DNA of 64,000 nucleotides. It comes from Escherichia coli. GTDB taxonomy: Bacteria; Pseudomonadota; Gammaproteobacteria; Enterobacterales; Enterobacteriaceae. The number at the start of each line of letters is the position of its first letter. Positions within the stretch are counted from its first letter, which is position 1. Made by a program: the position numbers. This document shows, one piece after another, positions 11,796 to 14,700 of this stretch. Location: NCBI RefSeq assembly GCF_030013205.1, contig NZ_CP122648.1; one strand, written 5' to 3'.

Positions 11796-14700
11796 GGTTA
11801 TGCGCTGATGCCTGATGCGGCGCGGGCGCGTCTTATCATACCCTGGAAGTCTGCGCCCGAATCGTAGGCCGCCTCCGCTATATTAACTGGCATTGGCAAA
11901 TTACTCGTCACTACCTTTATTCATGTTTTTTTGGTCTTCATCCGGATAATGTTTTTTTAGATATTCCAGGACGTTTTTATTGACCTTGTGTTGCGTATAC
12001 ACCCACCCTTTCCAGTAATCAGGCTGGTCCAGGTAAACTTCTGGCGGAATGGTGAAATCAGAAAGCGTTAACCATTCGGCTAATAGATCGGGGTTTCGTT
12101 TCTGGATTAACTGCAACAGCATAATCAGTGACATAGCTGAGGCAGGAGCCGTACTATCGCCACTTAAATATTTCCACACTGTTGACCGGTTCGAACGAAA
12201 AAGGATCGGTAGCAATGCCCGGTCCAGATTCATTTCATTAAAAATCTTCTCAAATTCATTCATTTAAATTTTCCTGCCTGGCGTAAACCTCTTAAAAATT
12301 GAGATTTATCAAAGAAACGCATTTTAGCACACATAAGGAACCGCTTCACGTTTAGTCCAGAAACAGAATTTATTTCGCTTATCAAAACAAGTCTTTACTC
12401 TTTTTTACATTGAAAGAGCACAAAATGATTTTCGATTTTATTTATATAAGAAACAATTTTTGTTTCTTATTGGTGGTGTTTACGCTTACACCAGACAAAA
12501 ATGCGCTTTACATCACACAAATGGCGGCGTAGATTTCGATTAAATTGCAACGCAGTTTATTTCTTAAAACAATATTATTTGTTTCTTATAGAAACATTAA
12601 TGCGACTTATTTTGAACAAGAGAAAATGAATGAAAACTGTAAACGTAGCTTTACTGGCACTCATAATTTCAGCAACATCCAGCCCTGTTGTTTTAGCTGG
12701 TGATACCATTGAAGCGGCGGCAACAGAGCTTTCAGCCATTAACTCTGGCATGTCGCAATCGGAGATTGAGCAGAAGATTACCCGCTTTTTAGAACGCACA
12801 GACAACAGCCCCGCTGCGTATACCTATTTGACTGAACATCACTACATCCCTTCTGAAACACCTGATACCACTCAGACTCCCACTGTCCAGACAGATCCTG
12901 ACGCAGGACAAAAAACCGTTGCCGCTACAGGTGATGTACAGACAACCGCCCGTTATCAGAGCATGATCAACGCCCGACAGTCTGCGGTAACTGATGCCCA
13001 GCAAACGCAAATTACAGAGCAACAGGCGCAGATCGTAGCCACACAAAAAACGCTCGCCGCGACTGGAGATACGCAAAATACTGCGCATTATCAGGAGATG
13101 ATTAATGCCAGACTGGCGGCTCAAAATGAGGCTAATCAGCGCACTACCACGGAACAAGGGCAGAAAATGAATGCACTGACAACCGATGTGGCAGCACAAC
13201 AGCAAAAAGAAAGGGCTCAATACGATAAACAAATGCAAAGTCTGGCGCAGAAGTCTGTCCAGGCACATGAGCAAATTGAAAGTCTGAGACAAGATTCCGC
13301 ACAAACGCAGCAACAGTTAACCAACACGCAAAAACGGGTCGCAGATAACAGCCAACAAATTAACACGCTCAATAACCATTTCGATTCTCTGAAAAACGAA
13401 GTTGAGGACAATCGTAAAGAAGCCAATGCGGGAACTGCATCAGCCATCGCTATCGCCTCACAACCACAGGTGAAAACCGGTGACTTGATGATGGTGTCAG
13501 CGGGAGCGGGAACCTTCAACGGTGAATCTGCGGTGTCTGTAGGAACATCTTTTAATGCCGGAACGCATACGGTACTTAAAGCAGGTATTTCTGCGGATAC
13601 ACAATCTGATTTCGGTGCGGGTGTCGGCGTGGGATATTCGTTCTAATTTTAACAGCAATTTCTTATTCGCAATTTTCCGTACATTATTTAAGGTTAACAA
13701 TGATGAATAGCTCCATTAAATCGTTTTCCCTGCTGGCGGTTATATTACTGGCTGGCTGTAGTTCACCCACTTCCCGCATCGCAGATTGCCAGGCGCAGGG
13801 CGTCAGCCATGACACCTGTTATCTCGCAGAACAACAGCGTCAGACGGCTATTTTAAGTGCATCCGAGGCGCAGGCATTTAAAAATGCAGAAGCCGCACAA
13901 CATGCCCAGGCGGCAAAGAAAGCCATTTATAAAGGATTTGGAATGACCTTTAGAATGAGCAGTAAAAACTTTGCTTATCTCAATGATTCATTATGTGCAA
14001 TTGATGAAGACAATAAAGATGCCACTGTTTATCAGTCAGGTCTGTATAACGTCATTGTTTATCATCACACAGGAAAAGTCGCCTTAATGAAGGAAGGTCA
14101 ATTTGTGGGTTATTTAAAATGAAGGAGCAAAGGAAAATACCCCTGACGCATATTATGATTATCGGTGCGTTTATTTTTGCCTTCTTGCAAGTAGTATTAT
14201 TAGCCTCCCTGGTTCACGCTGTGAATGTTAACAACGAAATCCAGGAAGGCTTATTTCAGTCGGGGCGCATTATGGTAGAAAGTTTGCAGCATATTCTTTC
14301 GGTGCAAACGGGGATTAACTGATTTTCACCCCGCCCGATGATGACAGCAGCCGGAGAGATTTTCGATAATCGGGCAGTCGGCGCTGTCATCGCCAGGGCA
14401 GGCATTCGCCAGCGCCAACAGCTGGTTGCGCATGGATTGCAGTTCTTCGATATGTCGCTCGATCTCCGCCACTTTCTCCAGGGTGCGACGTTTGACGTCG
14501 GCACTGTGACGCTGCGGATCGTTAAACAGATTCACCAGTTCGCCGCTCTCTTCCAGGTTAAAGCCCACCTGGCGCGCCTGGCGCAGTAAGGTCAGTTCGT
14601 TGAGATGCTGCTGCGTGTAGGTTCGATAACCATTTTCGCTGCGCATCGGCGGCGTCACCAGCCCCTTCTCTTCATAGAAGCGAATGGCTTTGCTGGTCAG

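What the first reader, a model, noticed from the sequence alone, without database searches (positions are those of the whole stretch)
12448..12596. Two palindromic GAAACA/TGTTTC sites in the divergent intergenic region upstream of the YadA-like gene
The 366-bp AT-rich region between the 120-aa ORF and the YadA-like gene contains a perfect 8-bp-arm inverted repeat AAGAAACA-N5-TGTTTCTT (12448..12468) and a second site TGTTTC-TTATA-GAAACA (12580..12596), the latter ~35 bp upstream of the YadA-like start. Repeated dyads of one half-site in a divergent promoter region are a typical operator arrangement, perhaps for the divergently encoded 120-aa protein or a global regulator.
Basis: seen in the sequence. 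Interest (0 to 1): 0.35.

Follow-up and report, generated by a model that had tools for sequence, protein, structure and literature searches.

The report
Conserved AGAAAC operator array, adhesin promoter

Summary
**Observation.** It is confirmed and is not chance. Dyad 1 is a 25-bp perfect palindrome (12446-12470). Dyad 2 is GTTTCT-TAT-AGAAAC (12581-12595). Six of the window's 26 AGAAAC hexamers lie within 283 bp of this 366-bp spacer.

**Locus.** The window is E. coli O-island 29: z0640 (120 aa), then the spacer, then z0639 (a 338-aa YadA-type trimeric autotransporter).

**Conservation.** In about 10 orthologous spacers from at least five genera, AGAAAC/GTTTCT is the most over-represented hexamer (46 observed, 3.1 expected). 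Copies sit at fixed positions:
- against the -10 of the z0640 promoter
- at its -35
- as a pair near -90 of the adhesin promoter
- at +3, +25 and +47 of the adhesin leader. The +48 copy, which is the right arm of dyad 2, is invariant.

The preferred geometry is tTTCT-N3-AGAAAC, and dyad 2 matches it perfectly.

**Rivals.** A host global regulator (OmpR-like) is less likely. RNA structure and chance are unlikely.

**In passing.** Published "GmrA" is this adhesin gene. A conserved CpxR-like box lies at 12394-12408.

The parts
11901..12263 (-). z0640-type gene. It encodes a 120-aa protein predicted to be an XRE-type helix-turn-helix DNA-binding protein, and is the candidate binder of the AGAAAC sites.
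12304..12318 (+). Site O1, ATTTATCAAAGAAAC. The AGAAAC (12313-12318) lies 2 bp from the -10 of the predicted z0640 promoter and covers its predicted start site.
   Evidence: position -229. AAGAAAC followed by ATTTTA is conserved across genera.
12321..12329 (-). Predicted extended -10 of the z0640 promoter (TGcTAAAAT on the minus strand). The start site is inferred near 12314.
   Evidence: Read from the sequence. It is conserved as TGGTAAAAT, TGATATAAT or TGCTATCAT in other genera (sequences). It has not been verified experimentally.
12350..12364 (+). Site O2, GTTTAGTCCAGAAAC. It lies at about -36 to -50 of the predicted z0640 promoter.
   Evidence: The position (-183/-185) is conserved in 10 of 12 spacers.
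12394..12408 (-). CpxR-box-like tandem repeat GTAAA-N5-GTAAA. This is a second conserved element, separate from the AGAAAC sites.
   Evidence: It is a perfect match, with 0.05 expected in the window. The same position holds a copy with at most 1 mismatch in 9 of 13 spacers. The CpxR consensus comes from memory.
12446..12470 (.). Dyad 1. Two AGAAAC hexamers face each other (12449-12454 plus strand, 12462-12467 minus strand) and form a 25-bp palindrome centred about -84 from the adhesin start site.
   Evidence: I12. The pair at -93/-80 is conserved in Escherichia and Symbiopectobacterium. AGAAAC-N7-GTTTCT is a secondary peak in the spacing analysis.
12507..12535 (+). Predicted sigma-70 promoter of the adhesin operon: TTTACA, 17-nt spacer, TAGATT. 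The start site is inferred near 12542.
   Evidence: The -35, the 17-nt spacer and the -10 are conserved in all 12 orthologous spacers.
12581..12595 (.). Dyad 2, GTTTCT-TAT-AGAAAC. It is a perfect copy of the inferred operator consensus, at about +39 to +53 of the adhesin leader. The right arm is 12590-12595.
   Evidence: The right arm is invariant in 9 spacers from at least 5 genera. N3 is the preferred spacing.
12630..13646 (+). The regulated gene. It encodes a 338-aa YadA-family trimeric autotransporter adhesin, known as z0639, ECs0548 'Saa-like' and the published 'gmrA'.
   Evidence: Pfam YadA_anchor, E 7e-12. PDB anchors of AtaA and Hia match. RefSeq annotates it as a YadA family adhesin. 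Primer mapping identifies it as gmrA. One search gives the 'Saa-like' label.
13700..14322 (+). Downstream genes likely co-transcribed with the adhesin gene: a 140-aa lipoprotein (z0638, 13700-14122) and a 67-aa ORF (14119-14322).
   Evidence: The same gene order is seen in other genera.

Best explanation
The two dyads are part of an array of operator sites whose core is the hexamer AGAAAC. The full form is tTTCT-N3-AGAAAC, and dyad 2 is a perfect copy of it.

Proposed mechanism:
- Sites O1 and O2 bracket the -10/start and the -35 of the z0640 promoter, giving negative autoregulation.
- The pair at about -90 (dyad 1) and the sites in the transcribed leader control the YadA-type adhesin operon. 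In E. coli the leader site is dyad 2 at +39 to +53. Other genera have a phased +3/+25/+47 series.
- Control of the adhesin operon is most probably repression, through a roadblock or a DNA loop between upstream and downstream sites.

What is shown: the sites exist, they are over-represented, their positions are conserved, the protein has an HTH fold, and the protein is linked to the adhesin gene across genomes.

For: **Site enrichment.** AGAAAC/GTTTCT is the top over-represented hexamer in 10 orthologous spacers: 46 observed against 3.1 expected, z 23.6.

**Conserved positions.** Relative to a conserved promoter, copies lie at -229, -183, about -93/-80, +47/48, and +3/+25 with 22-bp phasing. 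In a 9-sequence alignment with 59% mean identity, the +48 hexamer is invariant.

**Palindromic character.** An independent inverted left arm appears in the site logo: C at -5 in 23 of 44 sites, with T at -8, -7, -6 and -4. The spacing analysis peaks at N3, with mean 3.16 of 6 matches against a background of 1.2-2.0. This points to a two-fold symmetric binder.

**Autoregulatory geometry.** AGAAAC lies 2-3 bp from the conserved extended -10 of the regulator gene in 7 of the 9 divergent loci read (window, L010, L011, L012, L013, L016, L022). L014 keeps only AAAC there and L023 has no copy (sequences).

**Genomic linkage.** The family is tiny, with 23 hits in 1.8 billion representative proteins. 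In 10 of the 13 loci fetched through a family member, it sits divergently next to a gene with a recorded YadA_anchor hit. These loci lie in unrelated chromosomal neighbourhoods, so the module moves as a unit. Two further loci have long divergent ORFs with no Pfam hit on record. The exceptions are Symbiopectobacterium L010, the short contig L024 and the distant member L025.

**Locality.** No comparable site cluster occurs elsewhere in the 64 kb, as expected for a local regulator.
Against: - There is no experimental binding or expression data. Yang et al. 2018 deleted z0640 but reported only motility, which was unchanged.
- Hexamer spacing is heterogeneous (N3, N5, and head-to-head N7). Most copies have only a weak second arm, which is unusual for a simple dimeric operator.
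- The hexamer is equally conserved in hosts that all share global regulators, so conservation alone cannot separate a local binder from a host binder.
- Both transcription start sites are predictions.
Confidence: 0.55

Rival explanations
1. [not shown]
For: - GAAACA resembles the OmpR half-site of ompC C1/C2 and ompF F2 (recalled from memory).
- The 22-bp phasing of the +3/+25/+47 copies resembles tandem OmpR sites.
- gmrA (z0639) mRNA falls at high osmolarity and away from pH 7 (PMC5826968).
- The hexamer is conserved in hosts that all possess OmpR.
- A separate conserved CpxR-like box shows that host regulators probably act on this spacer.
Against: - Of 51 GAAAC pentamers in 8 non-redundant spacers, 44 are preceded by a purine (35 A, 9 G). 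Only 5 are preceded by T, which is the base found in the OmpR sites.
- The GTTAC and GTAAC variants at the core of the ChIP-seq motif TGTWACAW (PMC3586657) occur once each. OmpR sites are degenerate, whereas these are nearly invariant.
- The second arm is inverted, not direct.
- I could recall no E. coli factor with a TTTCT-N3-AGAAA operator, and a full-text search found none.
Confidence: 0.22
2. Dyad 2, and the sense-strand AGAAAC copies in the leader, act at the RNA level. They would form a small hairpin or a protein- or sRNA-binding motif in the 5' UTR of the adhesin mRNA that modulates translation or stability.
For: - Dyad 2 lies inside the predicted 88-nt leader, and the minimum-free-energy fold contains the 7-bp hairpin.
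- The +3/+25/+47 copies are all in the sense orientation.
Against: - The leader folds no better than shuffled sequences, z -0.49.
- No Rfam family matches.
- Five of the 11 Escherichia alleles read have GTTGCT in the left arm with no compensating change. Other genera have no left arm at all.
- Identical hexamers occur upstream of the promoter and on both strands, which an RNA element does not explain.
Confidence: 0.06
3. The dyads have no specific function. They would be chance palindromes of AT-rich, horizontally acquired DNA that is bound only non-specifically, for example by H-NS.
For: - The spacer is 31% GC between flanks of about 50-60% GC.
- AT-rich DNA is rich in short palindromes.
- gmrA expression depends on temperature, as expected for H-NS-silenced genes.
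Against: - Shuffles that keep local composition give 3.1 copies where 46 are seen.
- Positions are conserved to within about 2 bp in spacers that are otherwise only about 59% identical.
- The most divergent E. coli allele keeps a perfect dyad 2 although its flanks have changed.
Confidence: 0.04

Closest known systems
Small autoregulatory XRE-family HTH regulators with palindromic operators (anti-CRISPR-associated Aca1/Aca2, restriction-modification C-proteins, and MqsA/HigA2-type antitoxins)
   Same: - Small protein of about 120 aa.
- Inverted-repeat sites overlapping the -10/start of its own promoter.
- Additional sites controlling an adjacent or divergent gene.
   Different: - No sequence-level membership in any curated family.
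- No toxin, acr or R-M partner gene is adjacent.
- The partner is a trimeric autotransporter operon.
- The sites form an array of at least 6 hexamers with mostly weak second arms and several spacings.
- Binding has not been tested.
OmpR tandem binding sites (ompC C1-C3, ompF F1-F3; Salmonella ChIP-seq motif TGTWACAW)
   Same: - GAAAC(A) core within A/T-rich flanks.
- About 21-22-bp phasing of successive sites.
- The target is an outer-membrane or surface protein whose mRNA responds to osmolarity and pH.
   Different: - The base before GAAAC is A or G here, not T.
- GT[AT]AC variants are essentially absent.
- The second arm is inverted rather than direct.
- The hexamer is far less degenerate than known OmpR sites.
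Local regulators of adhesin operons encoded divergently from or beside the structural genes (for example PapB/PapI-type regulators of fimbrial operons)
   Same: A small DNA-binding protein is encoded next to an adhesin operon. Multiple phased sites lie in a long AT-rich control region, with probable input from global regulators (here a CpxR-like box).
   Different: - The fold is different (XRE HTH).
- There are no GATC/Dam sites in the E. coli spacer.
- There is no evidence of phase variation.
- The comparison rests on general knowledge and was not tested here.

Membership tests
[not shown]
   [not shown]
[not shown]
   The only hit is PF15731 MqsA_antitoxin (HTH part) at 13.5 bits against a cut-off of 30. 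The best E-value among 13 members is 0.007. NCBIfam gives nothing. A PDB profile search finds nothing significant. hhalign against MqsA gives 21% probability.
[not shown]
   The only support is indirect: an inverted left arm with preferred 3-nt spacing at the conserved hexamers.
Negatively autoregulated local repressor with its operator | An operator overlapping the regulator's own core promoter | tested here: inconclusive
   AGAAAC lies 2-3 bp from a conserved extended -10 (TGnTAAAAT) in 7 of the 9 divergent loci read (sequences). L014 and L023 lack a full copy there. A second site lies at -35. The promoter and start site are predictions only.
Toxin-antitoxin antitoxin (MqsA / HigA2 type) | An adjacent cognate toxin gene in the same operon | tested here: not met
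   The neighbours are ybbJ plus REP elements on one side and the YadA-type operon on the other. The pairing with a YadA-type gene, not a toxin, holds in most loci examined.
OmpR binding-site array | Direct tandem 10-bp half-sites with a G-x-x-A-C core (TGTWACAW, or TGAAACA) | tested here: not met
   44 of 51 GAAAC copies are preceded by a purine (35 A, 9 G) and 5 by T. GTTAC and GTAAC occur once each, and TGT[AT]AC once in total. The second arm is inverted. The published motif is from PMC3586657. The ompC and ompF sites are recalled from memory.
OmpR binding-site array | Successive sites phased by about 20-22 bp | tested here: met
   Copies at +3/+25/+47 in L013 and L016, +4/+26 in L014, and +4/(+26 degenerate)/+47 in Pseudocitrobacter.
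Intrinsic terminator or structured RNA element | A stable, G+C-rich or covarying stem, or a match to an Rfam family | tested here: not met
   No terminator-like site was found. No Rfam hit was found. The leader fold has z -0.49. Left-arm changes are not compensated.
CpxR box (the side feature at 12394-12408) | Tandem GTAAA-N5-GTAAA | tested here: met
   It is a perfect match, with 0.05 expected per window, and the position is conserved in 9 of 13 spacers. The consensus comes from memory, and CpxR binding cannot be tested here.
Trimeric autotransporter adhesin (the regulated gene, z0639 / 'gmrA') | N-terminal signal peptide, coiled-coil stalk and C-terminal YadA-type beta-barrel anchor | tested here: met
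   YadA_anchor scores 45.6 bits against a cut-off of 22.7, at residues 279-338. Residues 244-337 match the solved anchors of AtaA and Hia. The N-terminus MKTVNVALLALIISATSSPVVLA-GD has the n/h/c pattern of a Sec signal (read). Coiled-coil-type weak hits cover residues 104-271.

The most novel reading that the evidence does not exclude
O-island 29 is a self-contained, mobile 'regulator plus adhesin' cassette.

- The published 'transcriptional activator GmrA' (z0639) is that autotransporter. Its effect on fliA and motility would therefore be indirect, through cross-talk between surface structures and envelope stress, and not through promoter binding.
Probability: 0.3. Interest if true: 0.6.

Novelty: new member of a known kind. 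Interest (0 to 1): 0.45.

Why it matters
OI-29 is present in about a quarter of complete E. coli genomes (1413 of 5426), including O157:H7, UTI89-type UPEC, NMEC and APEC.

Its only functional description treats z0639 as a cytoplasmic transcription activator of flagella. That gene encodes a secreted trimeric autotransporter.

The analysis yields three things:
1. A concrete, testable control circuit for this adhesin: a defined operator consensus, mapped sites, two predicted promoters and a candidate regulator.
2. A small, previously unrecognised HTH family dedicated to YadA-type adhesin genes.
3. A reason to re-examine the GmrA model of motility control.

As a regulatory principle it is conventional: an XRE-type local regulator with palindromic operators.

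Tried and rejected
**Known regulators, from memory**
- KdgR (GAAAC-N3-GTTTC), Cra, IclR/AllR (GGAAA..TTTCC), RcsB, EvgA/BvgA, PhoP, Lrp, MetR, GlpR and AgaR were compared with the sites. None fits in both orientation and spacing. These are leads only and were not tested.
- A sigma-54 or sigma-28 promoter reading of the conserved GGCGTAgATT block was rejected. The block fits a sigma-70 -35/17/-10 arrangement.
- A full-text search for AGAAAC/GTTTCT inverted repeats in E. coli returned no papers.

**RNA and terminator readings**
- No Rfam family matched.
- The leader fold is not significant.
- No terminator-like site was found.

**Phase variation**
- There are no GATC sites in the E. coli spacer.
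- T-tract length differences inside dyad 1 occur only in L009 and L015. The genes in those assemblies look frameshifted, so the differences are probably sequencing artefacts.

- The first AF2 run on a shallow alignment (13 close homologues) gave pLDDT 56 and was discarded.
- PDB profile searches found nothing significant.

**Wider sampling**
- The scan of 100,044 species-representative genomes found only 4 loci, so broader sampling came from metagenome contigs.
- The distant family member in L023 lacks AGAAAC and has TTTCTGC three times. The member in L025 is not next to a YadA gene. There are too few cases to test protein-site covariation.

**Other matches in the window**
- The perfect GTTTCT-GCC-AGAAAC at 61842-61856 lies inside a coding region and was judged to be chance.

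Full report
**1. What is in the sequence**

The window is E. coli chromosome. Positions 11850-12700 are 100% identical to several porcine ETEC strains, and the segment occurs in 1415 of 5426 complete genomes.

RefSeq annotation gives this gene order:
- ybbJ
- a 120-aa hypothetical gene (11901-12263, minus strand)
- a 366-bp spacer
- a 338-aa 'YadA family autotransporter adhesin' (12630-13646)
- a 140-aa lipoprotein
- a 67-aa ORF
- cueR
- a type I secretion system with a 5501-aa Ig-like adhesin

- Dyad 1 is longer than described. It has 11-bp arms with a 3-nt centre, at 12446-12470 (I12).
- Dyad 2 is best written GTTTCT-TAT-AGAAAC, at 12581-12595.

**2. More than chance**

- The two dyad patterns, allowing one mismatch, are expected 0.14 and 0.10 times in the whole window.
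- The one-mismatch search exposed a third dyad-like site at 12360-12376.
- GTTTCTNNNAGAAAC with up to 2 mismatches gives 7 hits against 1.4 expected, four of them in this spacer.
- Six of the 26 AGAAAC hexamers of the 64 kb lie in 12313-12595.

**3. Comparative evidence**

Within E. coli, eight alleles that are 88-100% identical keep AAGAAAC..GTTTCTTAT of dyad 1 and AGAAAC of dyad 2. The left arm of dyad 2 is GTTGCT in four of these alleles. The most divergent allele keeps a perfect GTTTCT-ATA-AGAAAC although its flanks have changed.

The 120-aa protein has only 21 homologous clusters in 5.8 billion proteins and 23 hits among 1.8 billion representatives.

Loci were recovered for Pseudocitrobacter, Symbiopectobacterium, other Escherichia species and unnamed metagenome contigs.
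- In most of them the homologue is divergent from a YadA_anchor gene. The spacer is 356-379 bp, or 297 bp in one case.
- The surrounding genes differ: nrdAB, an MCP gene, fetAB or cnoX. The cassette therefore moves as a unit.
- Two members only about 45% identical are likewise paired with YadA_anchor genes.
- Exceptions are Symbiopectobacterium L010, the short contig L024 and the distant member L025.

In ten orthologous spacers, AGAAAC/GTTTCT is the most over-represented hexamer: 46 copies against 3.1 in composition-preserving shuffles, z 23.6.

All twelve spacers share a promoter block with -35 TTTAC(A/T), a 17-nt spacer and -10 TA(G/A/T)nTT. In the window this is 12507-12535, also found by the promoter scan.

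Anchored on that promoter, the hexamers lie at conserved coordinates:
- -229/-231
- -183/-185
- a pair near -93/-80
- +47/48
- +3 and +25 in several genera, giving a 22-bp phased series in the transcribed leader

In a 9-sequence alignment with 59% mean identity, the +48 hexamer, which is the right arm of dyad 2, is invariant.

**4. Anatomy of a site**

Forty-four non-redundant sites were aligned on AGAAAC. They show an independent, weaker inverted arm: T at -8, -7, -6 and -4, and C at -5 in 23 of 44.

A scan of all offsets for GTTTCT peaks at a 3-nt spacer, with mean 3.16 of 6 matches and nine sites with at least 5. Secondary peaks lie at N5 and, in head-to-head orientation, at N7. Background is 1.2-2.0.

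The inferred operator is therefore tTTCT-N3-AGAAAC.
- Dyad 2 is its perfect form.
- Dyad 1 is two hexamers facing each other (N7), a different geometry.

On the regulator side, AGAAAC lies 2-3 bp from a conserved extended -10 on the minus strand. In the window this is TGcTAAAAT at 12321-12329. Elsewhere it reads TGGTAAAAT, TGATATAAT or TGCTATCAT (sequences). L014 keeps only AAAC at that position and L023 has no copy. Site O1 (12304-12318) therefore covers the predicted z0640 start, and O2 (12350-12364) covers its -35. This is the usual geometry of negative autoregulation. The promoters and start sites are predictions.

**5. The candidate binder**

Sequence searches are weak.
- Pfam MqsA_antitoxin (HTH part) gives E 0.08 for the window protein. 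It is hit by 8 of 13 family members, with best E 0.007.
- hhalign against MqsA gives 21% probability over MqsA residues 75-129. The MqsA sequence was checked against PDB entries.

Structure prediction is clearer.
- With a 21-sequence alignment, AlphaFold2 gives pLDDT 91.4 and pTM 0.80.
- Foldseek agrees.

Such proteins typically bind inverted repeats as dimers and autoregulate. That statement is established knowledge and was not tested here.

**6. Rivals**

OmpR was taken seriously for three reasons. GAAACA resembles ompC and ompF half-sites (from memory). The 22-bp phasing resembles tandem OmpR sites. The adhesin mRNA falls at high osmolarity and off-neutral pH (PMC5826968).

The evidence against OmpR is stronger.
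- 44 of 51 GAAAC copies are preceded by A or G, and only 5 by T.
- GTTAC and GTAAC, the core of the Salmonella ChIP-seq motif TGTWACAW (PMC3586657), occur once each.
- The second arm is inverted.

An RNA element is unlikely.
- No Rfam hit was found.
- The leader fold has z -0.49.
- Left-arm changes are not compensated.
- Identical hexamers lie upstream of the promoter and on both strands.

Chance or purely non-specific AT-rich DNA is excluded.

**7. Relation to the literature**

The island is O-island 29 of O157:H7 (z0638, z0639, z0640).

Their deletion primers map exactly:
- The gmrA primers flank the YadA-family CDS.
- The z0638 primers flank the lipoprotein gene.
- The z0640 primers flank the 120-aa ORF.

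**8. Verdict**

The operator interpretation is supported in refined form.

The feature is a conventional kind of regulatory device, with a new small HTH family and a new operator consensus. Binding, the sign of regulation and the start sites remain to be shown.

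Noticed in passing
window 12630-13646 (equals L002 2867-3883): The gene published as 'gmrA' (z0639) is described as a cytoplasmic transcriptional activator of fliA (PMC5826968). It is the 338-aa YadA-family trimeric autotransporter gene. The paper's deletion primers flank exactly this CDS. The protein has a signal peptide, a coiled coil and a YadA anchor. The claimed 'DNA-binding domain' may be a coiled-coil artefact of the TMF_DNA_bd kind, which scores E 0.2 here. An earlier survey called the gene 'Saa-like'.
   Followed up: yes
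window 12394-12408 (minus strand): A perfect CpxR-box-like GTAAA-N5-GTAAA lies here, with 0.05 expected per window. The same position in the spacer holds a copy with at most 1 mismatch in 9 of 13 orthologous spacers. It lies about 87 bp upstream of the predicted z0640 start and about 140 bp upstream of the adhesin start. The consensus is recalled from memory.
   Followed up: partly
window 41908-41922 (minus strand): This is the only other perfect GTAAA-N5-GTAAA in the window. It lies about 100 bp upstream of the copA-like ORF (42014-44518), in the spacer shared with a glutaminase-like gene. From memory, copA is reported to be Cpx-regulated.
   Followed up: no
window 61842-61856: A perfect GTTTCT-GCC-AGAAAC (operator consensus) lies inside a 125-aa minus-strand ORF (61660-62037), in G+C-rich coding sequence. 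It is probably a chance match.
   Followed up: partly
window 12536-12546: TCGATTAAATT, immediately downstream of the adhesin -10, resembles the high-affinity H-NS motif tCGATAAATT (from memory). The spacer is 31% GC against about 50-60% in the flanks, and gmrA mRNA depends on temperature. H-NS silencing of the island is plausible.
   Followed up: no
L004-L008 (E. coli alleles) against window 12630-13646: The adhesin gene varies in length between strains: 338 aa here, 349 aa annotated with a start far downstream in several strains, and 422 aa in L008. This suggests repeat-number variation or mis-called starts in the stalk region.
   Followed up: no
window 11700-11880: Several REP-type palindromic units (gcctgatgcg..gtcttatcatgcctac) lie between ybbJ and the 3' end of z0640, at the edge of the island. 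There is a weak sub-threshold Rfam naRNA4 hit at 11800-11842.
   Followed up: no
L023 3270-3557 (distant family member P0024): This spacer keeps the regulator's extended -10 (TGGTAAAAT) but lacks AGAAAC. It carries TTTCTGC three times instead. This may be a diverged operator matching a diverged recognition helix (HRSTSHKW against NRSTVWKY), but there are too few cases to test.
   Followed up: partly
window 18068-34573 (minus strand) with 14730-18064: A 5501-aa Ig-like repeat protein lies next to its type I secretion ABC transporter and HlyD-type adaptor, beside cueR. UTI89 lacks this block but keeps OI-29, so the two adhesin loci are independent insertions.
   Followed up: no
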